This document shows, piece by piece, positions 3,518 to 58,674 of a stretch of DNA of 64,000 nt; the stretch's first letter is position 1, and each line of letters opens with the position of its first letter. Origin of the DNA: Patescibacteria group bacterium (GTDB taxonomy: Bacteria > Patescibacteriota > Minisyncoccia > Phycocordibacterales > UBA1550). A program made the position numbers and the translations under genes. The stretch spans positions 48,746-112,745 of the forward strand of contig JBBTUT010000002.1 of assembly GCA_038063615.1 (NCBI GenBank), written 5' to 3'. The notes beneath the pieces were generated by a model, which saw only the letters and a program-made list of their open reading frames with translations, searched no databases and was not told the origin of the DNA.

Positions 3518-4927
3518 CTATTTCAACCCCTCCTCAAACAGCACCTTGAGCGTTCCCGGGTTTGCGGAGCCTTTGCTTGCTTTCATCCCCTGCCCGATGA
3601 AAAATTGGAAGAGGGCGGTTTTTCCGGATTTGTAATCGGCGACGATGGTTGGGTTTGCGGCGACGATTTCGGCGACGATCTTTTTGAGCGCTTCGATGTC
3701 GTTTTTCTGGATGAAATTGTGTTTTTGCGCAATCTCGTGCGGGTGCCCGCCTTCGGCGTACAAGATGGCGAGCGTGTCTTTCGCACCGCGCGAAGAGAGG
3801 TCGCCTGCTTTGATCATCGTCACGAGGTCGGCAAGCCCCGCCCCTGTCACACCACCAAGAGTCCCATTCTCCTTCATTAAGCCAGCGAGGTCAGAGGTGA
3901 TGTAGTTTTCAATAAGCGCGATCGAGGGACGGTCGCTACCCGTAGCGACCACCGCATCTTCAAAAAGCCCGCCGAGTGTTGCGTCTATGGTAAATATCTC
4001 CGCATTCTCCGGCTTCACGCCGTATTCGCGCACGAGACGCGCGCGTTTCTCCCACGGGAGCTCCGGCAGTGTCGCCGAGAGTGCTTCTTTTGAAAATTCG
4101 GGAATCTCGCTCAACTTCAATTTTGGCAAGTCAGGGTCAGGGAAATAGCGATAGTCGTGCGCGCTTTCTTTCTTGCGTTGCGAAAATGTCGCCTGTTTGT
4201 TCTCGTCCCATCCGCGCGTCTCCTGTACTATCGTTTCGCCCTTGTCCAACATCTTCGTCATTCGTTCCACCTCATATGCGATAGCGCGCTCCACCGAGCG
4301 AAATGAATTCAAGTTTTTCACCTCCACTTTCGTACCGAGCGCATCGGTTTTTGATATTGAAATATTAGCCTCGACACGCATTTCGCCTTTTTCCATATTC
4401 GCATCGGACACACCGAGTGTGCGAAGGAGAAGCTGAAGCTCGCGCGCAAAGTTTCCCGCCTCTTCCGCACTCTTGATTGTGGGTGTCGTCACGAGCTCCA
4501 TGAGCGGCACACCTGCGCGATTGAAGTCCACAAGACTTCCCTCCGAGCCCTCATGCGACGAGCTCGCCGTATCTTCTTCGAGATGCACGCGCTCAATAAC
4601 GACACCGTTCAAAGCGCCCCCCGACACGAGCGGATATTTGTACTGGCTAATCTGGTACCCCTTTGGAATGTCAGGATAAAAATAGTTCTTGCGGTCAAAC
4701 TCGGTAAAGTCCGCAAGTGTACTCCCGAGTGCCACGCCCACGCGCAAAACATGCTTCACCGCCTCGCGGTTGATTACCGGCAATGTCCCCGGATGCGCCA
4801 TACACACGGGGCAAATATTCACATTCGGCTCTGCATTGAAAGGATCATTCGCCGAATTGCAGAACATCTTCGTCTTTGTTTTCAGCTCGGCGTGGACCTC
4901 GAGACCCACGGTTAGTTTATAACTCAT
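3518..4927 (-). CDS. gatB: Asp-tRNA(Asn)/Glu-tRNA(Gln) amidotransferase subunit B
   Basis: MSYKLTVGLEVHAELKTKTKMFC...YFYPDIPKGYQISQ, with a GatB/YqeY C-terminal domain. Confidence 0.9.
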   Translation of the reverse strand: MSYKLTVGLEVHAELKTKTKMFCNSANDPFNAEPNVNICPVCMAHPGTLPVINREAVKHVLRVGVALGSTLADFTEFDRKNYFYPDIPKGYQISQYKYPLVSGGALNGVVIERVHLEEDTASSSHEGSEGSLVDFNRAGVPLMELVTTPTIKSAEEAGNFARELQLLLRTLGVSDANMEKGEMRVEANISISKTDALGTKVEVKNLNSFRSVERAIAYEVERMTKMLDKGETIVQETRGWDENKQATFSQRKKESAHDYRYFPDPDLPKLKLSEIPEFSKEALSATLPELPWEKRARLVREYGVKPENAEIFTIDATLGGLFEDAVVATGSDRPSIALIENYITSDLAGLMKENGTLGGVTGAGLADLVTMIKAGDLSSRGAKDTLAILYAEGGHPHEIAQKHNFIQKNDIEALKKIVAEIVAANPTIVADYKSGKTALFQFFIGQGMKASKGSANPGTLKVLFEEGLK

Positions 4928-5892: not shown

Positions 5893-5957
5893 ATGCGAAG
5901 TATATCATAAAATATCCCCACTCGCCCCAACCTCTCCTGTATCAAAAATTAATGCTT

Positions 5958-6001
5958 CAAAATCACCAAGTTTGACCTATAGGTCAAACTTGGTGATTTT
6001 G
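5958..6001. terminator. Perfect 20 bp stem with a 4 nt loop (caaaatcaccaagtttgacc tata ggtcaaacttggtgattttg) between hicA and the methyltransferase. Terminator-like or an operator palindrome.
   Basis: Perfect inverted repeat read directly in the sequence. There is no clean T-run after it on either strand. Confidence 0.4.
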
Positions 6002-6034
6002 AGGAAATTAATACGCCACACAAAAGTACTGTTA

Positions 6035-15771: not shown

Positions 15772-16248
15772 TTATATTAGAATATCCACCTCCTCAATAT
15801 TCTTTTCCAAAATACAATCCCCTTCCCCAAAAAGAAACCTTCCTTTGAATTTTTTGCCGGCAAAAAAGAGCGGCATCCAGTGCGGGTCATCCGGCCACAT
15901 CTCGGCAAAAGGGATCTCGTCGCGGGAGAACCACTGCGGGAGCATTTCCTCACTTTCTGTCGGCTCCCCATGATATTCGCGTGCGCGAAAGATGTGTACC
16001 TCAAGAATCTCCGGATTCCCTTCAAATTCAAAATCCATAAGCCCCGCTTTTTCAAGAATAGGTATCTCTATCCCCGCCTCCTCGCGAAATTCCCTCCGCG
16101 CCGCCTCCTCTATCGTCTCTCCATCTTCCACTTTCCCGCCAAACCCATTCCACCTCCCCGCCCCAAACCCGCGCTTCTTTTTCCCCAAAAGCACATGAGT
16201 ATCAGTATGAAGGAGGCACAAAGTTAAAACTTTTTTCTTTTGCTCCAT
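15772..16248 (-). CDS. NUDIX hydrolase (MutT/MTH1-like). Start set at MEQKKKVL.
   Basis: Nudix box GGKVEDGETIEEAARREFREEAGI. Confidence 0.8.
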   Translation of the reverse strand: MEQKKKVLTLCLLHTDTHVLLGKKKRGFGAGRWNGFGGKVEDGETIEEAARREFREEAGIEIPILEKAGLMDFEFEGNPEILEVHIFRAREYHGEPTESEEMLPQWFSRDEIPFAEMWPDDPHWMPLFFAGKKFKGRFLFGEGDCILEKNIEEVDILI

Positions 16249-16325
16249 AGTTGGTAAATATACCACGCACCCCAACACAAAACAATCCTCCCCCAAATAA
16301 TACCTCTCTCTTCCTCCACATCCGC

Positions 16326-16369
16326 CACCATTATCTATTCCAAGTCATGACTTGGAATAGATAATGGTG
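16326..16369. repeat. Perfect 44 nt palindrome, family P1, 22 nt upstream of the PaaX-like gene 1 start
   Basis: caccattatctattccaagtca|tgacttggaatagataatggtg is its own reverse complement. Confidence 0.8.
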
Positions 16370-16391
16370 TATAATACAAAGTAAATACACC

Positions 16392-16946
16392 ATGGACAAA
16401 TACGAAAAAGGCGAACTTGCAAAAGAGATACTGCTTGGCATTGCGGCTTGTGGTTTCATCGTCGCAATGGCGGCGATGCCTGGGCTCGGTAAAGTAGTGC
16501 CACTTTTTAAAAATTTCAAAAGGGCAAAAGACCGCCACCGGATAAATCAAGCATTCCAAAAACTTCAAAAAAGAAAGCTGGTAAACATTTATACAAAAAA
16601 TAGTACCGAAGTCGTAGAGATTACCGAAGCGGGAAAGAAAAAAGTTCTTGAATACAATCTTGGCGAGATGAGATTAAAAGTCCCAAAGAAATGGGATGGC
16701 TGGTGGAGAATCGTGATGTTCGACATTCCACAGCCAAAGAAGAAAGCACGCGACGCGGTGAGCTGGAAGATAAAAGAGCTTGGTTTGTACCCGATCCAAA
16801 AGTCAGTTTTTGTATCACCATACTTATGTAAAAATGAAATTGATTTTATTGGAGAATTTTTTGGAGTACGCGACCACATCATCTACATCAAAGCAAAAGA
16901 GATCGAGGGTGTACGCAAACTCAAAGAATATTTTAACCTTGAATGA
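16392..16946 (+). CDS. PaaX-family-like transcriptional regulator, paralog 1 (wHTH N-terminal domain plus PaaX_C-like WDGxW domain; short form)
   Basis: C-terminal KKWDGWWRIVMFDIPQPKKKARDAVSWKIKELGLYPIQKSVFVSP parallels E. coli PaaX WDGKWLLLL...QL.W.GFG.L. The N-terminal half parallels PaaX_N. It is 45% or so identical to the ORF at 47433..48017. Confidence 0.5.
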   Translation: MDKYEKGELAKEILLGIAACGFIVAMAAMPGLGKVVPLFKNFKRAKDRHRINQAFQKLQKRKLVNIYTKNSTEVVEITEAGKKKVLEYNLGEMRLKVPKKWDGWWRIVMFDIPQPKKKARDAVSWKIKELGLYPIQKSVFVSPYLCKNEIDFIGEFFGVRDHIIYIKAKEIEGVRKLKEYFNLE

Positions 16947-17009
16947 CGCATCGGCACCAATTGACCCCATCGCAAACAAAAACCGCAACGAGTTAACTCA
17001 GTTGTCTCT

Positions 17010-17047
17010 TGTTATCTATTTCAAGCCATGACTTGAAATAGATAACA
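17010..17047. repeat. 38 nt palindrome, family P1, one central mismatch, 63 nt downstream of the PaaX-like gene 1 stop
   Basis: tgttatctatttcaagcca|tgacttgaaatagataaca. Confidence 0.75.
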
Positions 17048-17077
17048 GGGGGAACCGACAAAAAACTAATTCCATTT

Positions 17078-17380
17078 CTAAGACTCGTCTAAAATAATGC
17101 GCTTGGCAAACCCACCGCGCTCGCACGCTTTCTTTTCCTGTTCAGCGCGAAGCGCTTCTTTTGAAAACCCTTTATATGCCATCACGGCATCCAAGACCTC
17201 GGCGATATCGGCAAGCTCTTCGATGTTTTCAGCCATTAAAAACTCCTCCACCTCCTCGCGTAGCTTTTCCTTGAGTTTCATCCCATATTCCGCCTCATCG
17301 GCAATATGAAAGACCGCCTTCTCTCCTTTCGCCTCGATTCGCTCAACGATCTTGTCCCGCACGAGTTTATTGTAGTGCAT
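17078..17380 (-). CDS. MazG-like all-alpha NTP pyrophosphohydrolase (HisE/YpjD-like, about 100 aa)
   Basis: MHYNKLVRDKIVERIEAKGE...ENIEELADIAEVLDAV is the typical MazG/NTP-PPase small-protein pattern. Confidence 0.6.
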   Translation of the reverse strand: MHYNKLVRDKIVERIEAKGEKAVFHIADEAEYGMKLKEKLREEVEEFLMAENIEELADIAEVLDAVMAYKGFSKEALRAEQEKKACERGGFAKRIILDES

Positions 17381-20541: not shown

Positions 20542-20569
20542 AAAAACCCCGCCGAAGCGGGGTTTTTGT
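20542..20569. terminator. Rho-independent terminator-like hairpin (ccccgc cgaa gcgggg + T-run, A-run upstream; bidirectional) inside a 1 kb non-coding region
   Basis: Read from the sequence. Preceded by a second hairpin at 20505-20531 (ttttacgaagg...ccttcgtaaaa). Confidence 0.5.
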
Positions 20570-20595
20570 TTGAGCGAAATATTATTTACGCTTTG

Positions 20596-20662
20596 TAGTC
20601 TTCTTTGCTTTCTTTGCTACTTTCTTTGCCTTCTTTGCTACTTTCTTTGCTTTCTTTTTTGC
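20596..20662. repeat. Short tandem repeat of 9-12 nt units (ttctttgct / actttctttgct), about 6 units
   Basis: tcttctttgct ttctttgct actttctttgcc ttctttgct actttctttgct ttctttttt. Confidence 0.7.
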
Positions 20663-21114
20663 TGCCATTTTTTTATGTGCTATTCGCTGATGCAGTGATG
20701 CATCCTCGAACATGTATGCAAATTATTTTATCTACAACAATTACTCGACCCGATCGTGTATGAGTAAATCTCATCATCAATCGCGTACAATTATTGGATC
20801 ATGTCTTGTGTGAAAATTCTCTCACACGGTGTACTGTGATCTACTACTATTATCGCGCATACAAAAATCAAACACAATACTTTTTAAAAATAAAACTGTG
20901 GATAACTTTTTTTCTTTGTCGTGAAGAAAATTTTTTTGAAACAAAAAAAATTTTACATCTGCTCCACGAAATTTTAATTTCATAAATTTAATTTCGCATT
21001 CCATTTTCCAATTTCAAATTTAAACTTCCCTTTCACTGCACACGCATCCGGACCTATGGGCCCGAATGCGTGTGCAGTGAAAAAATTTCAAAACATACCA
21101 GACAAAAATTAAAT

Positions 21115-21154
21115 CTTCCGCCTTCTATGTCCTATAGGACATAGAAGGCGGAAG
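21115..21154. repeat. Perfect 18 bp stem with a 4 nt loop (cttccgccttctatgtcc tata ggacatagaaggcggaag). An imperfect 14 bp hairpin lies just upstream at 21034-21079.
   Basis: Read from the sequence. Confidence 0.7.
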
Positions 21155-21172
21155 AACTTGGAAATTAAAAAA

Positions 21173-21196
21173 ATCCGCCAAATTGGCGGATTTTTT
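21173..21196. terminator. Bidirectional rho-independent terminator (atccgcc aaatt ggcggat with flanking A and T runs)
   Basis: Read from the sequence. Confidence 0.6.
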
Positions 21197-21380
21197 ACTC
21201 CTGTACTCTTAAGGCCAGCGGGGGCGAGCTCCAAAACAAATGTCTATGAGTGCAGCCGCTAGCCATAGGAACACACGATACTATTTAATACGATGAGCGT
21301 AGAGTACCGGGCAGTGTCTAGCCGACGCGAAACTCACCATTCACCATATGTTCTGTATTATAAACAATTTATACAAAAAC
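21197..21380. ncRNA. Candidate small structured RNA, about 185 nt, GC-rich relative to its surroundings and bracketed by terminators. Identity unknown.
   Basis: No ORF. The segment lies between the terminators at 21173-21196 and 21381-21408 and has GC-rich stems (ggccagcgggggcgagctcc ... ccgggcagtg). Confidence 0.2.
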
Positions 21381-21408
21381 AAAAAGCCCCGCTTTCGCGG
21401 GGCTTTTT
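21381..21408. terminator. Bidirectional rho-independent terminator (gccccgc tttc gcggggc + TTTTT, A-run upstream)
   Basis: Read from the sequence. Confidence 0.65.
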
Positions 21409-21491
21409 GTAGACATTCGTTTGTTTTGGAAGTACCTAGAGGTTTCCCTCACTGCACTCATGTAACCAATATAGCAAATTCACAGGAAAAG

Positions 21492-25531: not shown

Positions 25532-25557
25532 CCCTAACATGATAACATAACAAAAAA

Positions 25558-25629
25558 ATCTATGCAAGAATTCAAAAATCTATGCACTCATCGAGCAGTC
25601 ATGCATAGATATTTGGCAAAATCTATGCA
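25558..25629. promoter_or_regulatory. Cluster of ATCTATGCA repeats (three direct, one inverted forming ATCTATGCA-N15-TGCATAGAT) immediately upstream of the MerR-GHKL gene. Candidate operator.
   Basis: Sites at 25558, 25578 and 25621, and an inverted copy at 25602. Confidence 0.4.
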
Positions 25630-25743
25630 TGACTATTTTAATAACTGTTCCAGCATACCCCATTGTTGCCAAAATATAACATTTTGACCTCAACGGGATT
25701 CATGGTGCCACTATCGTAACATAATTGCAGAAAACGAGAAATC

Positions 25744-43502: not shown

Positions 43503-43546
43503 TAGCTTTGAATACCTGATTTTAGTCTAATTCCCCCAAATAGGTA

Positions 43547-43595
43547 TATTACGGGGAGTTTGACTCCCCGTAATTGACATATTACGGGGAGTTTG
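43547..43595. promoter_or_regulatory. Direct repeat tattacggggagtttga (twice) with an internal inverted repeat (attacggggag / ctccccgtaat), upstream of the AAA+ ATPase gene
   Basis: Read from the sequence. Contains TTGACA at 43575-43580. Confidence 0.3.
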
Positions 43596-43611
43596 ATACC
43601 CTTAAAGGTAT

Positions 43612-44745
43612 ATGAGGATTCCAAGACTATATGCTGACATAGGAAGCCGTCTCCAACCAAACAAGGTCTTGGTTATCTTTGGTCCGCGTCGTGTCGGCAA
43701 AACGACCCTTATCACCGACTTTCTCTCAACATACAAAGGAAAATATCGCTTAGAATCCGGTGACGATATTCGTGCGCGTGAAGTCCTTGGATCAGAAGAT
43801 CTTTCCTTGTTGAAAGAGTATGCGGCAGGATACGACCTCATCGTAATTGATGAAGCACAGCGCATACCTAAGATTGGCTGGGGACTGAAACTGCTTGTTG
43901 ATCATATCCCGGGAATTCGCATCATTGCTACCGGCTCATCATCGTTTGAGCTTGCCGGGCAGATTGGCGAGCCACTCACCGGGCGCAAAAACACAATAAC
44001 ACTCTTCCCTATTTCTCAGCTCGAGTTGCTCGCCTATCACGGTGGGAACCGCCACGACCTCTCCGTAGAAATTACTGAGCGGCTTGTATTTGGCAGCTAT
44101 CCAGAAGTTGTCTCTACTAAAAACACAGGCGAAAAAAAAGATATTCTTGGAGAAATTGTCGGATCATACTTGCTCAAAGATATCTTGGAGCTTGACCGTA
44201 TTCGCAATACAAAAATATTAAGCGACCTCGTACGGCTTGTCGCGCTTCAAGTGGGAAATGAAGTATCTTTGAGCGAGCTCGCGACAATACTTGGAATAGA
44301 CAGGAAGACGGTCGCTCGATATCTCGACCTTCTCGAGAAATCATTCATCCTTTACAATCTACGCGGATATAGCCGTAACCTTCGCAAAGAGGTGACCAAG
44401 AAAAGCAAATACTATTTCTACGACACGGGTGTACGAAATGCGGTCATTTCAAACTTCAACGATCTTTCTCACCGCGATGACGCTGGAGCGCTGTGGGAAA
44501 ACTTTATGGTAATCGAGCGACTTAAAACGCGTTCATACAAAAACATACCTGCAAATGATCACTTTTGGCGCACATGGGATCAAAACGAAATTGACTTCGT
44601 TGAAGAGCGCGACGGAAAACTTTTTGGTTATGAATTTAAGTGGAAAAATCTAAAAGCGAAAGAACCGAAGGGTTGGCGCGAAACATATCCTGAGGCAAGC
44701 TACGAGGTAATCACTCCCGAGAATTATCTAAAAATACTCGAATAG
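43612..44745 (+). CDS. AAA+ ATPase with C-terminal DUF4143 (AAA_14 / DUF4143 family)
   Basis: VLVIFGPRRVGKTTL Walker A, LIVIDEAQRIP Walker B, and a C-terminal DUF4143-like region (FFYDTGVRNAV...). Confidence 0.75.
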   Translation: MRIPRLYADIGSRLQPNKVLVIFGPRRVGKTTLITDFLSTYKGKYRLESGDDIRAREVLGSEDLSLLKEYAAGYDLIVIDEAQRIPKIGWGLKLLVDHIPGIRIIATGSSSFELAGQIGEPLTGRKNTITLFPISQLELLAYHGGNRHDLSVEITERLVFGSYPEVVSTKNTGEKKDILGEIVGSYLLKDILELDRIRNTKILSDLVRLVALQVGNEVSLSELATILGIDRKTVARYLDLLEKSFILYNLRGYSRNLRKEVTKKSKYYFYDTGVRNAVISNFNDLSHRDDAGALWENFMVIERLKTRSYKNIPANDHFWRTWDQNEIDFVEERDGKLFGYEFKWKNLKAKEPKGWRETYPEASYEVITPENYLKILE

Positions 44746-47297: not shown

Positions 47298-47343
47298 CCC
47301 CGTAACCCCTATCTCCACAACTATCTCCCCAATCTTATCTTTT

Positions 47344-47389
47344 TCTCTTCAGCCTGTTTGATACTATAGTATCAAACAGGCTGAAGAGA
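47344..47389. repeat. Perfect 46 nt palindrome, family P2, 44 nt downstream of the PaaX-like gene 2 stop
   Basis: tctcttcagcctgtttgatacta|tagtatcaaacaggctgaagaga. Confidence 0.8.
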
Positions 47390-47432
47390 AATTCAACGAG
47401 ACCTCCTCGAAACGAGTGCTCCTGCGGATAAT

Positions 47433-48017
47433 TTAAAGCTTGAATGTCTTCTTAATCTGCTCCACGCCTTCAACATCATGGGCGACAACAATACGAATAT
47501 ATTTTCGAACATCAAAACATTCTCCAACAAAATCAATCTCCTTGGTGCAAGGAAACGGCGTAATAAACACTGACTTTTGATACTGCGCACAACCAAGCTT
47601 CTTGAGGGCGAGATTGACTGCTCGACGCGCCATCTTTTTTTCTTCAGGAACATCGAACATAATTAAACGCCATGTTCCATCCCATTTTTTTTGAGGAGAT
47701 ATTTTCATCAAATCAAGCTGATTTCGCTTTGCGCGATTATACCCTAAGTCGGTAAGCGAATAATAATCATCTCCATTTTTCGTACTCTTTTTTACAAACC
47801 CTCTTTTCTCAAGCCGTGAAAATGAGCGGTGAACCTCCCATCTATCTTGAGAGTTTCGCGGAAGAAAATATTTAAAAAGTTGCACGGCGTTGGGAGCAAC
47901 GATTGCTGTTGTTAAAAGCCCAACACCAAGCAAAATATTCAGAATCATCTCCTGTCGTTCTTGTTTTTTCAAAATCATCTCCTGCTTCTTTTGTTTTTCT
48001 TTTTCTTGTTTTTTCAT
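47433..48017 (-). CDS. PaaX-family-like transcriptional regulator, paralog 2, with a K/E/Q-rich N-terminal extension
   Basis: SFSRLEKRGFVKKSTKNGDDYYSLTDLG (PaaX_N-like wHTH) and KKWDGTWRLIMFDVPEEKKMARRAVNLALKKLGCAQYQKSVFITP (PaaX_C-like). Homologous to the ORF at 16392..16946. Confidence 0.5.
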   Translation of the reverse strand: MKKQEKEKQKKQEMILKKQERQEMILNILLGVGLLTTAIVAPNAVQLFKYFLPRNSQDRWEVHRSFSRLEKRGFVKKSTKNGDDYYSLTDLGYNRAKRNQLDLMKISPQKKWDGTWRLIMFDVPEEKKMARRAVNLALKKLGCAQYQKSVFITPFPCTKEIDFVGECFDVRKYIRIVVAHDVEGVEQIKKTFKL

Positions 48018-48026
48018 ATTAAATCA

Positions 48027-48068
48027 TTTACAGCCTGTTTGATACTATAGTATCAAACAGGCTGTAAA
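48027..48068. repeat. Perfect 42 nt palindrome, family P2, 10 nt upstream of the PaaX-like gene 2 start
   Basis: tttacagcctgtttgatacta|tagtatcaaacaggctgtaaa. The 34 nt core is identical to the 47344..47389 copy. Confidence 0.8.
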
Positions 48069-48178
48069 TGTAAACAGGGATGAACAGGGAATTAAGGAAC
48101 TTACAAAAATCTACTGATTCGTCTATTTCGCTGACAAACTCACAAAAGTGACCCGTACAATTAAGGTCGAGCAACTTC

Positions 48179-53303: not shown

Positions 53304-53347
53304 GCCCATTATCTATTTCAAGTCATGACTTGAAATAGATAATGGGC
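53304..53347. repeat. Perfect 44 nt palindrome, family P1, third copy, far from the PaaX-like genes
   Basis: gcccattatctatttcaagtca|tgacttgaaatagataatgggc. Confidence 0.8.
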
Positions 53348-55670: not shown

Positions 55671-55686
55671 TATCTGCTTTTCAAAG

Positions 55687-55760
55687 TGCGCGATCCAGGA
55701 CTCGAACCTGGGACCTCGTCATTATCAGTGACGCGCTCTAACCACCTGAGCTAATCGCGC
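55687..55760 (-). tRNA. tRNA-Ile (anticodon GAU), 74 nt, no encoded CCA
   Basis: GCGCGATTAGCTCAGGTGGTTAGAGCGCGTCACTGATAATGACGAGGTCCCAGGTTCGAGTCCTGGATCGCGCA. A 7 bp acceptor stem, GTGG D-loop, anticodon loop CTGATAA and TTCGAGT T-loop. Confidence 0.85.
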
Positions 55761-56410: not shown

Positions 56411-57026
56411 GTTTGAAAAATTGCATGTATGTAATATCTAAAAATTATTTGTTGAGTATTCTTTCTTTTGTTCCGTTCTTCGCCTTGCTTTGCCGTCCGT
56501 TTTAAAAAAACAGGCGATTAAGCAAGGTCTTGCGTACCGGTAACCCTTCCGGTAAGGGAGCCCCTTTTTGAGATGGGAGGGCCTTCATCTTAATTCCTTG
56601 CGGAAAAAACCGACCAATTCAGCGTATCGCAACCACGAGGGCGTACGATACAACATTATATTTTGAATTGATTCACGACCAGCTTCCGCTAGCCGTGCCT
56701 TGTTACGACTTAGTCCTTGTTACCAAGCTTACCTTAGGTCCACGCGAGGTGGAACTTCGGGTACTCTCGGCTCCCCTGACTTGACGGGCGGTGAGTACAA
56801 GACTTGAGAACGTATTCACCGCAGTATAGCTGACCTGCGATTACTAGCGATTCCAACTTCATGAGGTCGAGTTTCAGCCCTCAATCCGAACTGGGGCCAC
56901 CTTTATTAGGATTAGCTCAGGGTTACCCCGTCGCGACCCGTTGTAGTGGCCATTGTATCAAGTGTGCAGCCCAGGGTATCAAAGGGACATGCTGACCTGG
57001 CGTCATCCTCTCCTTCCTCCCCCGCC

Positions 57027-57153
57027 TTTATTCGCGAAGCGAACAAAGGCAAGTCAAAAGTTAAAAGTCACAAGTCGAAAGTAGATGCATTTTGCATTCA
57101 CTTTTTACTTTACACTTTCTACTTTCCACTTGCCTTTGCGCTTCGTGCGCAAA
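57027..57153 (-). other. 16S insertion 1: an AT-rich extended hairpin of about 116 extra nt replacing the small loop before the GGAGGAAGG region (E. coli position about 1165)
   Basis: Sense strand reads TTTGCGCACGAAGCGCAAAGGCAAGTGGAAAGTAGAAAGTGTAAAGT...ACTTTCGACTTGTGACTTTTAACTTTTGACTTGCCTTTGTTCGCTTCGCGAATAAA, full of (G/C)AAAGT repeats. No ORF. Confidence 0.6.
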
Positions 57154-57388
57154 GGCGGGGGCAGTCTCGTCTGACACATATAACAGACAACGAGGGTTGC
57201 GTTCGTTGACCCACTTAAGGGGACAGTTCAAACCACGAACTGACGACGGCCATGCATCACCTGTCCATAAGTCCTTGCGGAGTTACCGAGTTTCCTCGGT
57301 CTTTCTTATGGATTTCTAACCCTGGTGAGGTTCTTCGTTTACCATCGAATTAAGCCACCTGATCCACCGCTTGTGCAAGTCCCCGTCT

Positions 57389-57420
<32 letters not shown>

Positions 57421-57918
57421 TCCCAGGCGGATCTCTTAACGCGTTAGCTTCGCCTCTCAGAGGGTCGATACTCCGAAAAGCTAGAGATCATCGTTTAGGG
57501 CGTAGACTACTGGGGTATCTAATCCCATTCGCTACCTACGCTTTCGTGTTTCAGTGTCAGAAATGTGCCAGTTTGCTGCCTTCGCATTTGGTGTTCCCCA
57601 TGATATCAACGGATTTCACCCCTACACCATGAGTTCCGCAAACCTCTCACACCCTCTAGTCGTGCCGTTTCAGCCGCAATTCTCCGGTTAAGCCGGAGGC
57701 TTTGACGAATGACTAACACGACCACCTACACACCCTTTACGCCCAATAATTCCGGATAACGCTTGGGGTACTCGTATTACCGCTGCTGCTGGCACGAGTT
57801 TAGCAACCCCTTATTCATGAGGTACTATCAAAAATTTCTCCCTCATAAAAGATCTTTACATCCCGAAAGACTTCATCGATCACGCGGCGTCGCTCCATCA
57901 GACTTTCGTCCATTGTGG

Positions 57919-57949
<31 letters not shown>

Positions 57950-58189
57950 ATGGTCCGTGTCTCAGTACCATCGGTGGGGGTCAGGCTCTCACCTCCCCTA
58001 AGCGTCATAGCCTTGGTAAGCCATTACCTTACCAACTAGCTGATACTCAATAAGCCAAGCCCCAAGCGATAAATCTTTACTCCGAAGAGACTATCAAGTA
58101 TTAGCCCGCCTTTCGGCGGGTTATTCCTGACTTGGGGGTTTGTACCTATTTATTACTACCTCGTTCGCAACTCCGAGCATCACGCTACG

Positions 58190-58292
58190 CGCGATACACG
58201 AGTCAAAAGTCGAAAGTCCTTAAAGTCCAAAGTAAATACGAATTGTATTCACTTTTGACTTTCGACTTTATAAACTTTTTGACTTGTGCATC
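58190..58292 (-). other. 16S insertion 2: an AT-rich hairpin expansion of helix 6 (V1 region), about 95 extra nt, with the same AAAGT/GACTTT repeat flavour
   Basis: Stem base CCGAGCATCAC ... GTGATGCTCGG. The interior reads CAAGTCAAAAAGTTTATAAAGTCGAAAGTCAAAAGTGAATACAATTCGTATTTACTTTGGACTTTAAGGACTTTCGACTTTTGACTCG. Confidence 0.6.
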
Positions 58293-58674
58293 ACACCCAA
58301 TGTGATGCTCGGCGTTCTACTTGCATGCCTTATCCACGCCGCCAGCGTTCATCCTGAGCTAGGATCAAACTCTCTTAAAAAGAGCATTTGAATTAACTCT
58401 CAAGAACGGAACAAAAGAAAAAATACTCTTTTGTATTCTTGTTATTTTACTCACAAGATCTGCCCAACTGCTAAAATCGAACAGATCCTTTTTTGGACTT
58501 GCAATCCAAACTTTAGATGTTTACATATATGCAATTGTCAAAGGTCGTTTTGCTTTCGGGCAAATACCCTGAAAGCAAAAGCGCTCATTCCTAAGCGCTT
58601 GAGCAGTATATACTTGTGTCGAAAAGAAGTCAAGCGCGAATTTTAGGCATATTTTATAGGCAAAATAAAGGTTT

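What the first reader, a model, noticed from the sequence alone, without database searches (positions are those of the whole stretch)
16326..17047. PaaX-like regulator gene bracketed by two copies of a 38-44 bp perfect palindrome (family P1)
The 184 aa PaaX-family-like regulator gene (16392..16946) has a perfect 44 nt palindrome 22 nt upstream of its ATG and a near-perfect 38 nt copy of the same palindrome 63 nt after its stop.

These palindromes are far longer than an ordinary dimer operator. Bracketing a regulator gene this way suggests either a self-contained autoregulatory loop (the protein binds both sites) or a mobile, hairpin-ended cassette. The same architecture recurs with a different palindrome around the paralog at 47433..48017.
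Basis: partly seen in the sequence, partly recalled or inferred. Interest (0 to 1): 0.75.

Follow-up and report, generated by a model that had tools for sequence, protein, structure and literature searches.

The report
Mini-PaaX gene bracketed by private palindromes
A 184-residue PaaX/Cas2-like DNA-binding protein gene sits between two copies of a long palindrome; the same gene-plus-palindrome unit, each with its own palindrome sequence, recurs across ultra-small (CPR) bacteria, lies at different places in related genomes, and I found no description of it.

Summary
A perfect 44-nt palindrome (16326-16369) lies 22 nt before the ATG of ORF 16392-16946. A 38-nt copy (17010-17047) lies 63 nt after its stop. 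A third copy is at 53304-53347. The paralog at 47433-48017 (minus strand) has its own 50- and 46-nt palindromes.

The protein is a truncated PaaX: a winged helix plus a Cas2-like domain, with no C-terminal domain.

The architecture is family-wide. In 80 CPR loci, long loopless palindromes are 42-fold denser beside the gene. They are locus-specific in their arms and share a R-Y-N-A|T-N-R-Y centre.

Two residues on helix 1 of the Cas2-like domain track the central bases. A -10-like hexamer is enriched just after the upstream copy.

The 842-nt unit is absent between the same neighbouring genes in one related genome (L122), and no such gene lies beside the MazG-like gene in two others. The paralog's ortholog sits elsewhere on a conserved backbone. 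The solo copy at 53304 is absent from seven relatives.

Best reading: an accessory cassette encoding a dimeric palindrome-binding, probably self-repressing protein, with solo sites elsewhere. Its genomic behaviour resembles REPIN-RAYT. Binding, repression and the agent that moves it are all inferred.

The parts
16237..17078 (.). Whole segment present in this genome but absent from related genome L122. It contains P1a, the gene and P1b.
   Evidence: blastn: window 15791-16236 matches L122 5756-5311, and window 17079-17380 matches L122 5302-5001. So 842 nt here correspond to 8 nt there, where the MazG-like and NUDIX genes overlap.
16326..16369 (.). P1a: upstream 44-nt perfect palindrome, centre AGTCA|TGACT. 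Putative operator overlapping the promoter.
   Evidence: promoter scan
16347..16375 (+). Sigma70-like promoter match ATGACT-17-TATAAT (10/12). The -35 is the palindrome centre and the -10 abuts the palindrome.
   Evidence: Alone this is not above shuffle expectation. Family-wide enrichment of a -10-like hexamer at this position has p = 0.0017.
16392..16946 (+). PaaXL1 gene, 184 aa. Winged helix (H1 8-19, strand 23-26, recognition helix 45-60, wing 64-77), linker helix 79-92, then a Cas2-like beta-alpha-beta-beta-alpha-beta domain 105-180. Invariant F110-D111. Specificity residues Q114 and D121.
17010..17047 (.). P1b: downstream 38-nt copy with 1 mismatch, lying in a convergent gap. Its role is unresolved: a second binding site, a roadblock, or a cassette boundary.
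53304..53347 (.). P1c: solo 44-nt perfect copy of the P1 palindrome, between rsmI and a small membrane-protein gene. Absent at this site in 7 related genomes.
47342..47391 (.). P2a: 50-nt perfect palindrome downstream of the paralog, centre GATACTA|TAGTATC.
47433..48017 (-). PaaXL2 paralog, 38% identical to PaaXL1, with E at the residue-114 position and R at the 121 position. Its 72%-identical ortholog lies at a different site in L121.
48025..48070 (.). P2b: 46-nt perfect palindrome upstream of the paralog. It overlaps a promoter-like site, TTTACA-16-TACTAT.
5955..6004 (.). P3: solo loopless palindrome of the same architecture (perfect over 5957-6002, centre CCTA|TAGG). No cognate gene in the window.
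21114..21155 (.). P4: solo 42-nt perfect palindrome, centre CCTA|TAGG. No cognate gene in the window.

Best explanation
The locus is a small accessory cassette of about 0.73 kb from palindrome to palindrome. Its single gene encodes a truncated PaaX-type protein made of a winged helix plus a Cas2-like dimerisation domain. The cassette carries that protein's own palindromic recognition site on each side.

Proposed mechanism:
- The protein binds the palindrome as a symmetric dimer.
- Helix alpha-1 of the two Cas2-like domains reads the central 8 bp. Residue 114 reads the base at +-2 and residue 121 the base at +-4.
- The winged helices would read the arms, as in PaaX, whose operator spans 39 bp.
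- The upstream site overlaps the gene's core promoter, so the protein represses itself.
- The downstream site and the solo copies elsewhere in the genome are further binding sites. Their role (looping, roadblock, or target or remnant of cassette movement) is not settled.
- Each paralog has a private palindrome, giving several orthogonal protein/site pairs per genome.
- Over evolutionary time the palindrome-gene-palindrome unit and the solo palindromes appear at new intergenic places. Genomically the system behaves like a REPIN-RAYT partnership, but with a different protein.

Shown here: the anatomy, its conservation across the family, private specificity, residue/base covariation, promoter overlap by position, and presence/absence and relocation on conserved backbones.

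Inferred: binding, repression, and the dimer geometry.

Unknown: what moves the unit.
For: 1. Fold and homology. PaaX_M hits at 1.8e-17 and 5.2e-19. The AF2 model has pLDDT 81.7 and shows a wHTH plus a ferredoxin-like Cas2 fold. The best PDB match is PaaX 8a39 over about 180 columns. phmmer against 8a39 gives E = 0.005 across the recognition helix, the wing and beta-1. The PaaX operator is 6-N27-6, and PaaX represses its own promoter (PMC9493321).

2. Family-wide architecture.
- In 80 loci, 61 loopless palindromes (arms at least 16 nt) lie within 350 nt of the gene, against 10 in the remaining 377 kb. That is a 42-fold density.
- With a relaxed score, the upstream side passes the 99th percentile of shuffles in 44/79 loci, the downstream side in 48/80, and both in 32/80.
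- Upstream and downstream copies at one locus resemble each other (median 0.73 identity) far more than copies from different loci (0.33).

3. Recognition code.
- Residue 114 is Q or H when the centre is ..CA|TG.. (8/8, in two separate clades).
- Residue 114 is E when the centre is ..TA|TA.. or ..GA|TC.. in every family-type locus. This holds inside a single cluster of at least 55% identity.
- Residue 121 is R when the base at +-4 is A (four clusters), and mostly D, N or E when it is G.
- These are the two strongest of all protein-by-DNA position pairs, z = 12.8 and 12.5.
- An out-of-sample locus, L094, has E114 and a CTATAG centre.

4. Promoter overlap. P1a reads ATGACT-17-TATAAT. A -10-like hexamer follows the upstream palindrome on the gene side in 23/43 loci, against 38/139 control flanks, p = 0.0017.

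5. Solo copies carry the genome's own arm variant.

6. Accessory or mobile behaviour.
- The 842-nt unit is absent in L122, where the two neighbouring genes overlap; no PaaX_M gene lies next to the MazG-like gene in L123 or L124 either, but there the NUDIX neighbour is missing too.
- The PaaXL2 ortholog (72% aa) sits between murC and a 119-aa ORF in L121. L117 and L118 have empty sites there.
- Homology between orthologous cassettes ends at the outer edges of the palindromes.
- P1c is absent from 7 relatives.
Against: - There is no binding or expression data. All function is inferred from sequence.
- The residue/base covariation rests on related sequences, so only about 2-4 independent switches support each rule.
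- The promoter match at P1a alone is not above shuffle expectation. CPR promoters are not characterised.
- The downstream copy lies in convergent gaps and shows no -10 enrichment. Solo copies occur in co-directional, convergent and divergent gaps roughly as random intergenic placement would give: about 9:4:5 observed against 61:24:15%. That is not what a classical regulon looks like.
- Palindromes stay symmetric even at positions that vary among copies within one genome. Dimer binding alone does not require this. It points to intrastrand pairing or template-switch correction.
- Asp111 is invariant beside the specificity residues, which suggests chemistry rather than mere binding.
- Many orthologs keep their neighbours, so movement is rare.
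- No target-site duplication was seen, and the empty sites examined carry no palindrome.
- All comparisons use metagenome-assembled contigs, and long palindromes can cause misjoins.
Confidence: 0.55

Rival explanations
1. The wHTH-Cas2-like protein is an active nuclease. Guided by its winged helices, it cuts or nicks at the dyad of its palindrome, as duplex or as an extruded cruciform or hairpin. Repair or copying then spreads solo palindromes and occasionally the whole palindrome-gene-palindrome unit. This would be a non-HUH functional analogue of IS200/REPIN-RAYT, or a homing-like element.
For: - Asp111 is invariant in 87 sequences and sits at the Cas2 catalytic position at the end of beta-1.
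- The specificity residues 114 and 121 flank it, which places the Asp pair of a dimer at the DNA dyad.
- Cassettes and solo copies are gained at new sites.
- Symmetry is preserved at variable positions, as in REPIN spacers (PMC3337134).
- There is one gene copy per palindrome family, several families per genome, and mostly vertical inheritance, as for RAYTs.
- In L098 and L094 the arms are chimeric, or homology breaks inside the palindrome.
- In one population a single mismatch appears flipped between arms.
Against: - Copy numbers are low: about 3-8 copies per family were seen, not hundreds.
- A hydrolytic Cas2-type site cannot by itself perform strand transfer.
- E. coli PaaX, a plain repressor, has Glu at the same position, so the acidic residue may be structural.
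- There are no target duplications, and empty sites have no palindrome.
- The chimeric palindromes may be assembly artefacts.
Confidence: 0.25
2. It is an ordinary host transcription factor with a small regulon. Each paralog is a repressor whose operators lie at its own gene and at a few target promoters. The presence/absence differences are ordinary gene gain and loss.
For: - PaaX-family homology and a long spaced operator in the family.
- Promoter overlap of the upstream copy.
- Solo sites conserved between related strains at dut|argS and upstream of a dgkA-like gene.
- Conserved synteny of many orthologs.
Against: - A 44-nt perfect palindrome cannot arise at a new site (P1c) by point mutation. 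It must have been copied there.
- Downstream copies and several solo copies lie in convergent gaps with no promoter.
- The genes next to solo sites have no common function: rsmI, ftsQ/dus, dut/argS, priA.
- Arms diverge fast between species while symmetry is kept.
- The gene always travels together with both palindromes.
Confidence: 0.15
3. It is an RNA-level element. The palindromes are transcribed and form 20-25-bp hairpins at both ends of the mRNA and in other transcripts. The Cas2/VapD-like domain binds or cleaves these hairpins, giving mRNA stabilisation, processing or termination.
For: - Cas2 and VapD relatives include ribonucleases (PMC3351183, listed).
- The hairpins are strong.
- Compensatory, symmetry-keeping changes occur.
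- C-run/G-run clamps often sit at the stem base.
- One family-type palindrome in L119 is flanked by A- and T-tracts like a bidirectional terminator.
Against: - Almost all copies have no loop and a self-complementary centre, which an RNA hairpin does not need. The centre is the most conserved part and covaries with protein residues.
- The -10-like hexamer lies downstream of the upstream palindrome, so that copy is probably not in the gene's own transcript.
- Copies occur in divergent gaps.
- Canonical GC-rich terminators exist separately in the same genome.
Confidence: 0.05

Closest known systems
PaaX repressor of phenylacetate catabolism (E. coli, Pseudomonas; PDB 8a39, 3l09)
   Same: - N-terminal winged helix followed by the central Cas2-like (PaaX_M) domain.
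- Direct sequence similarity over the recognition helix, the wing and beta-1, and the best whole-chain fold match.
- A long inverted-repeat operator, TGATTC-N27-GAATCA, and repression of its own promoter.
   Different: - No PaaX_C ligand-binding domain; the protein ends after the Cas2-like domain.
- Far below the TIGR02277 cut-off: 44.8 bits against 264.55.
- No paa genes nearby.
- The site here is a fully self-complementary 38-66-nt palindrome with a conserved centre that covaries with Cas2-like domain residues, a feature one search does not report for PaaX.
- A site lies on both sides of the gene, there are solo copies, and there are several private protein/site pairs per genome.
REPIN-RAYT systems (REP-associated tyrosine transposases and their palindromic repeats)
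   Same: Shared features (PMC3337134, compared):
- A short gene of about 500 bp flanked by its cognate palindromic repeats.
- Each gene specifically associated with one repeat family.
- Several unrelated pairs per genome, each gene in single copy.
- Mostly vertical inheritance.
- Dispersed extragenic copies.
- Variable positions that keep the hairpin.
   Different: - The protein is not an HUH/Y1 transposase. There is no HUH motif and no IS200-like Pfam hit.
- The repeats are loopless perfect palindromes, not REP doublets with a spacer.
- Only a handful of copies per family were seen, not tens to hundreds.
- No GTAG/CGTC tag.
Cas2 / VapD (ferredoxin-like nucleases)
   Same: - The C-terminal domain has the Cas2 beta-alpha-beta-beta-alpha-beta fold.
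- Weak but consistent Cas2 profile hits over beta1-alpha1-beta2. TIGR01573 gives 22.6 and 24.7 bits against a cut-off of 24.5. PADLOC Cas2 models reach 3e-6.
- The acidic residue at the end of beta-1 is invariant.
   Different: - Fused to a winged helix.
- No cas1, no CRISPR array and no other cas gene in the neighbourhood.
- Scores better with PaaX_M than with Cas2.
IS200 (smallest insertion sequence, about 0.7 kb, one small ORF, terminal hairpins)
   Same: Unit size of about 0.7-0.84 kb, a single small ORF, and strong hairpin-forming sequences near both ends. (Knowledge of IS200 is from memory; not tested here.)
   Different: - A different protein family.
- Both ends here are the same symmetric palindrome.
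- No multiple identical copies in a genome.

Membership tests
PaaX superfamily (wHTH + PaaX_M) | Central Cas2-like domain PF20803 above the gathering score | tested here: met
   63.6 and 68.6 bits against a cut-off of 24.
PaaX superfamily (wHTH + PaaX_M) | N-terminal PaaX-type winged helix (PF07848) | tested here: inconclusive
   - The Pfam hit is only E = 0.15, for the paralog.
- phmmer against PaaX 8a39 gives E = 0.005 over the recognition helix and wing.
- AF2 gives H1-strand-(low-confidence H2)-H3-wing.
PaaX proper (TIGR02277 equivalog, phenylacetyl-CoA-responsive repressor) | Full-length match above the equivalog cut-off, including the C-terminal PaaX_C ligand domain | tested here: not met
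   44.8 bits against 264.55. The match covers model positions 37-150 of 279 only. The protein ends at residue 184/194.
PaaX proper (TIGR02277 equivalog, phenylacetyl-CoA-responsive repressor) | Linkage to paa catabolic genes | tested here: not met
   The neighbours are NUDIX, a MazG-like gene, a methyltransferase, SecA and guanylate kinase.
Cas2 | Score above the curated cut-offs (PF09827 23.8; TIGR01573 24.5) | tested here: inconclusive
   PF09827 gives 22.4 and 21.1 bits, both below. TIGR01573 gives 22.6 (below) and 24.7 (just above).
Cas2 | Encoded with cas1 next to a CRISPR array | tested here: not met
   No cas gene appears in the called neighbourhood. No arrayed repeats were reported around the genes.
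REPIN-RAYT | The gene encodes an IS200-like HUH/Y1 transposase | tested here: not met
   No such Pfam or NCBIfam hit. No conserved His-x-His among the invariant columns.
REPIN-RAYT | The gene is flanked by its specific palindromic repeat family, which is also dispersed in extragenic space | tested here: met
REPIN-RAYT | Tens to hundreds of repeat copies per genome | tested here: inconclusive
   There are 3 P1 copies in 64 kb, plus 4 further distinct sites in contigs of the same population. No whole genome was available.
Classical insertion sequence / transposon | A known transposase or recombinase, target-site duplication, and multiple near-identical copies | tested here: not met
   - No transposase domain.
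- No duplication at the junctions compared.
- Paralogs within the window are 38% identical.
- No relatives in IMG/VR.

The most novel reading that the evidence does not exclude
These cassettes may be a previously unrecognised class of minimal mobile or 'domesticated-selfish' element, seen so far in CPR-type MAGs. The only gene would encode a winged-helix-guided Cas2-like nuclease that acts at the dyad of its own long palindrome. That action would copy or relocate the palindrome-gene-palindrome unit and seed solo palindromes. It would be a REPIN-RAYT/IS200-like lifestyle built on the Cas2 fold rather than the HUH fold. It would also show a Cas2-fold domain reading specific DNA sequence.
Probability: 0.25. 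Interest if true: 0.9.

Novelty: new variant of a known kind. Interest (0 to 1): 0.7.

Why it matters
- **Scale.** CPR/Patescibacteria genomes are tiny and poor in recognisable regulators and mobile elements. Here a single family accounts for many of the long perfect palindromes in these genomes. It comprises 630 clusters at 50% identity with E <= 1e-30 and 2700 with E <= 1e-10, with several paralogs per genome.
- **A testable recognition code.** Each protein comes with its private DNA site, which offers a ready-made protein-DNA recognition code. Residue 114 pairs with the base at +-2 and residue 121 with the base at +-4, on a Cas2-fold helix. If confirmed, this would be the first sequence-reading role for that fold and a set of orthogonal DNA-binding modules.
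- **Genome evolution.** If the protein also cuts, the system would be a new kind of gene/repeat partnership and would bear on what Cas2-like proteins did outside CRISPR.
- **Assembly.** The palindromes break assemblies. Many contigs carrying the gene are only 0.8-1.1 kb, and contigs end inside P1a. The palindromes also coincide with apparent rearrangement breakpoints. Both matter for CPR genome reconstruction.

Tried and rejected
- **Membrane anchor.** The hydrophobic N-terminal stretch (residues 13-39) first looked like a transmembrane helix. With an 87-sequence alignment, AF2 models it as H1 plus strand 1 of the winged helix, at the place where a wHTH has its first helices. Rejected as unsupported.
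- **Invertible segment (Hin/hix-like).** No orientation difference was seen in any syntenic pair or strain contig.
- **Phage or plasmid origin.** No relative in IMG/VR. PHROGs gives nothing or a weak 'transcriptional regulator' hit.
- **Defence system.** PADLOC gives only weak Cas2 hits.
- **Intrinsic terminators.** Canonical GC-rich, T-tailed hairpins exist separately. The palindromes lack T-tracts and also occur in divergent gaps.
- **HUH transposase in disguise.** No His-x-His motif and no conserved catalytic Tyr among the invariant columns.
- **Winged-helix-to-arm recognition code.** Covariation between recognition-helix residues and arm positions did not rise above the phylogenetic background; the best was z about 5 for residues 50 and 53 with positions 14-15.
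- **Simple deletion leaving a solo palindrome in L098.** Only one flank is syntenic, so this is a rearrangement or a misassembly, not a clean excision.
- **Literature.** Searches for PaaX + Cas2-like + palindrome, Cas2 + PaaX, and Patescibacteria + palindromic + intergenic + repeat found no description of this family.
- **Exhausted caps.** P2, P3 and P4 could therefore not be searched outside the loci already fetched.
Full report
**1. Observation**

The sequence is as described.
- 16326-16369 is a 44-nt palindrome with 22 perfect pairs and no loop. It ends 22 nt before ATG 16392.
- 17010-17047 is a 38-nt copy with one mismatch. It starts 63 nt after the stop at 16946.
- The consensus has a third, perfect 44-nt match at 53304-53347, and none is expected in shuffles.
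- The window holds 13 hairpins/palindromes with arms of at least 13 nt, against none in five shuffles.
- Seven of these share one style: no loop, AT-rich arms and a self-complementary centre. They are P1a, P1b, P1c, P2a (47342-47391), P2b (48025-48070), P3 (5955-6004) and P4 (21114-21155).
- The rest are ordinary GC-rich terminators with T-tails.
- The paralog at 47433-48017 is on the minus strand. It is bracketed by P2a and P2b.
- A profile of the family finds only these two genes in the window.

**2. The protein**

- Both ORFs hit Pfam PaaX_M, the central Cas2-like domain of PaaX, at 1.8e-17 and 5.2e-19. They hit Cas2 models just below or at the cut-offs.
- With an 87-sequence alignment, AF2 gives pLDDT 81.7. 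The model has H1 8-19, a strand 23-26, a poorly defined 27-44, helix 45-60, a beta-hairpin wing 64-77, helix 79-92, and then a beta-alpha-beta-beta-alpha-beta domain 105-180.
- The best PDB match of the first AF2 model, over the whole chain, is E. coli PaaX 8a39. Cas2 structures match the C-terminal domain.
- phmmer aligns the recognition helix, the wing and beta-1 to 8a39 at E = 0.005.
- The PaaX_C domain is missing, and the TIGR02277 equivalog score is far below its cut-off.
- The protein is therefore a 'mini-PaaX', not PaaX itself.
- The hydrophobic N-terminus, which I first took for a membrane anchor, is modelled as the first elements of the winged helix.
- F110-D111, R120, Q136, S138, P143 and E149 are invariant in 87 sequences.

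**3. The architecture holds across the family**

- The family is large. There are 630 clusters at 50% identity with E <= 1e-30 and 2700 with E <= 1e-10, nearly all 180-200 aa long.
- The named records are mostly Patescibacteria/CPR MAGs (Yonath-, Jorgensen-, Staskawicz-, Lloyd-, Azam-, Giovannonibacteria and others). A few records carry other labels. Several genomes have more than one paralog.
- In 80 loci from species-representative genomes, 61 loopless palindromes with arms of at least 16 nt lie within 350 nt of the gene (55 kb in total). Only 10 lie in the other 377 kb. The density ratio is 42.
- With a mismatch-tolerant score, 44/79 upstream and 48/80 downstream flanks exceed the 99th percentile of shuffles, and 32 loci exceed it on both sides. 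Many sub-threshold loci still keep the 8-12-nt centre.
- The two copies at one locus resemble each other (median 0.73 identity over 18 nt, despite some register errors). Copies from different loci do not (0.33).
- Across 96 palindromes the centre is R-Y-N-A|T-N-R-Y. The commonest forms are GCTA|TAGC, GTCA|TGAC and ACTA|TAGT. The arms are family-specific, and the 5' arm is strikingly poor in G.

**4. Evidence that the protein reads the palindrome**

I compared 56 gene/palindrome pairs. Two protein-by-DNA position pairs stand far above all others.
- Residue 114, the first residue after the invariant F-D-I-P at the start of helix alpha-1 of the Cas2-like domain, tracks the base 2 from the dyad (z = 12.8).
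- Residue 121, seven residues on and so probably on the same helix face (not checked on the model), next to invariant R120, tracks the base 4 from the dyad (z = 12.5).

The rules are as follows.
- Q or H at 114 goes with ..CA|TG.. centres in all eight cases. These fall in two clades that share under 45% identity.
- E goes with ..TA|TA.. or ..GA|TC.. in every family-type locus.
- Within one cluster of at least 55% identity, the Q members (W1, L001-3, L007-8) have CATG centres. The E members (L004-6, L009, L028) have TATA centres.
- R at 121 goes with A at +-4 in four clusters. Acidic or polar residues go with G, with a few exceptions.
- A locus not used for the analysis, L094, has E114 and CTATAG centres.

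The number of independent switches is small, so this is strong circumstantial evidence, not proof. The simplest reading is that a two-fold dimer places its two alpha-1 helices on the central 8 bp. The winged helices would then reach the arms. That geometry is compatible with the 39-bp PaaX operator TGATTC-N27-GAATCA (PMC9493321). It would also put the invariant Asp111 pair at the DNA dyad.

**5. Autoregulation**

- At P1a the only strong plus-strand sigma70-like match is ATGACT-17-TATAAT. Its -35 is the palindrome centre and its -10 abuts the palindrome.
- At P2b a match uses the centre as its -10.
- Such matches are not rare in shuffles.
- Across the family, however, a hexamer with at least 5/6 identity to TATAAT lies at the gene-side edge of the upstream palindrome in 23/43 loci. 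The three control flanks together give 38/139 (odds ratio 3.1, p = 0.0017).
- The upstream copy is thus placed where a bound dimer would occlude the promoter, as PaaX does at Px.
- The downstream copy shows no such signal. In this window it lies in convergent gaps, so its role is open.

**6. Solo copies**

- A scan of metagenome contigs for P1-like sequences returned 21 loci. Most have no PaaX-like gene nearby.
- The window comes from Hainich H41 groundwater. Contigs from that site carry the same P1 core at four or more further places: ftsQ|dus, dut|argS, upstream of a dgkA-like gene, and hypothetical|priA.
- Solo copies carry the arm variant of the gene-flanking copies of their own genome. 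An example is L084 compared with L087.
- All copies are intergenic. They occur in co-directional, convergent and divergent gaps in about the proportions of such gaps.
- Positions left free by my search pattern change on both arms together. For example, one column pair reads T-A in 10 copies and C-G in 8, with none unpaired. The covariation score is 0.313 against 0.164 +- 0.015 in shuffles, 0/500.
- Within this one genome, P1a and P1b differ at positions 17-18 from the dyad, yet each is symmetric.
- Something beyond dimer binding therefore keeps the arms complementary. Candidates are intrastrand pairing under selection or template-switch correction.

**7. Mobility**

- Many orthologs keep their neighbours, for example L008/9/14 and L016/22/27. 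No inversion was seen. The cassette is therefore mostly inherited vertically.
- On conserved backbones it is nevertheless present or absent. The segment 16237-17078 (842 nt: P1a, gene, P1b) corresponds to 8 nt in L122, where the MazG-like and NUDIX genes overlap.
- L123 and L124 have no PaaX_M gene next to their MazG-like gene, although NUDIX is missing there too.
- The paralog's ortholog (72% aa) lies in L121 between murC and a 119-aa ORF. That is about 0.7 kb upstream of rsmI, not about 5 kb downstream of it as in the window.
- L117 and L118 have an empty site there, with no palindrome. The window's own P2 site holds an unrelated ~190-aa ORF in L117, L119 and L121, and no ORF in L120.
- Alignments of orthologous cassettes from different places lose similarity at the outer edges of the palindromes.
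- The solo copy P1c is missing from the rsmI|small-gene gap of seven related genomes. A 44-nt perfect copy cannot arise there by point mutation.
- The unit, and solo palindromes, have therefore been copied to new places, though rarely.
- I found no target duplication, no known transposase fold, and no relatives in viral contigs.

**8. Comparison with known systems**

The protein belongs to the PaaX superfamily but fails the tests for PaaX proper and for Cas2 proper. The genomic behaviour matches the published description of REPIN-RAYT systems point by point (PMC3337134):
- a short single-copy gene flanked by its own palindromic repeat;
- one repeat family per gene;
- several unrelated pairs per genome;
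- vertical inheritance;
- hairpin-preserving variation.

The differences are that the protein is not an HUH transposase, the repeats are loopless perfect palindromes, and copy numbers are low. Literature searches found no description of the family or of its palindromes.

**9. Verdict**

The best-supported explanation is a dimeric palindrome-binding, self-repressing mini-PaaX carried on an accessory palindrome-bounded cassette, with solo sites elsewhere (confidence about 0.55).

The main rival, that the Cas2-like domain is an active dyad-specific nuclease driving the spread, is not excluded (about 0.25). It would make this a new kind of element.

Caveats:
- All function is inferred.
- The covariation has few independent events.
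- All comparisons rest on metagenome assemblies, which long palindromes can disturb.

Noticed in passing
window 5955-6004 and 21114-21155: Two further solo loopless perfect palindromes (P3, P4) share the centre CCTA|TAGG and have different arms. No cognate PaaX-like gene is in the window. L009's gene, with E114 and R121, is flanked by ACCTA|TAGGT-centred palindromes, so a third or fourth paralog probably lies elsewhere in this genome.
   Followed up: partly
L086:3872-3909 versus L091:6868-6905, L096, L100 (same dut|argS site): The single mismatched pair of this P1 copy is swapped between arms in otherwise near-identical intergenic sequence: T...G in one set of contigs and C...A in the other. 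This is what an inversion of the palindrome would produce, rather than two independent point changes.
   Followed up: partly
L098:11508-11553; L094:1-85 versus L088:230-335: In L098 a P1-like palindrome has a left arm of one subtype (CCGTAG) and a right arm of another (TTCAAG), beside the ortholog of a cassette neighbour but with no PaaX-like gene. In L094, homology to L088 breaks 16 nt from the dyad inside the left arm. Either the palindromes are rearrangement breakpoints or these are assembly misjoins. L094 starts only 53 nt away.
   Followed up: partly
96 palindromes from window and loci L001-L101: The 5' arm of these palindromes is strongly depleted in G (4-12% at positions 5-28 from the dyad). 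C-G pairs are therefore almost always oriented with C on the 5' arm. Many copies end in a C-run...G-run about 20-27 nt from the centre. I have no explanation for this.
   Followed up: no
table; L105, L111 (contig ends): Many public contigs carrying the gene are only 0.8-1.1 kb. Strain contigs end about 52 nt beyond the start codon, inside the perfect palindrome P1a, but pass through the imperfect P1b. Long perfect palindromes evidently break short-read assemblies of these genomes.
   Followed up: partly
window 20560-21490: This is an almost 1-kb stretch without convincing ORFs. It contains a 48-nt imperfect inverted repeat (about 21033-21080), P4, and two canonical bidirectional terminators (21168-21196 and 21379-21410). 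The terminators bracket about 180 nt that could be a small RNA. No Rfam family matched at gathering threshold.
   Followed up: no
window 43540-43596: There are three copies of ATTACGGGGAGT. Two form a 27-nt palindrome and the third is direct. They are interleaved with a TTGACA-like hexamer just upstream of the ORF starting at 43612. This looks like the operator of a different regulator.
   Followed up: no
window 25556-25634: Repeated AATCTATGCA boxes (three direct and one inverted, forming a 38-nt hairpin at 25597-25634) lie upstream of the minus-strand gene ending at 25567. This is another candidate regulatory site.
   Followed up: no
window 56661-58380 and 55686-55760: The 16S rRNA match spans 1720 nt for a 1533-position model, so it has about 190 extra nucleotides. 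I recall CPR 16S genes often carrying such insertions; not checked here. tRNA-Ile follows it, and no 23S rRNA match was reported anywhere in the window.
   Followed up: no
L119:14745-14786 and L121:13944-13985: Two 42-nt loopless palindromes with a CGGCCG centre lie just downstream of the LTD/PKD gene in two related genomes. They differ at several positions on both arms symmetrically (CCCAATAAGAACA versus GCGAATAAGCGCG). Symmetry-preserving evolution of palindromes is thus not limited to the PaaX-like-associated type.
   Followed up: no
L080:2944-3540 and 4149-4766: Two PaaX-like genes lie in tandem about 600 nt apart in one MAG. This is the only locus of 80 with two copies.
   Followed up: no
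window 16249-16325 (minus strand): In L122 the NUDIX gene overlaps the MazG-like gene, as in an operon. Here the cassette separates them, in antisense orientation. NUDIX has an extended -10-like TGGTATATT about 8 nt before its ATG, so cassette insertion seems to have come with a new promoter for the downstream gene.
   Followed up: partly
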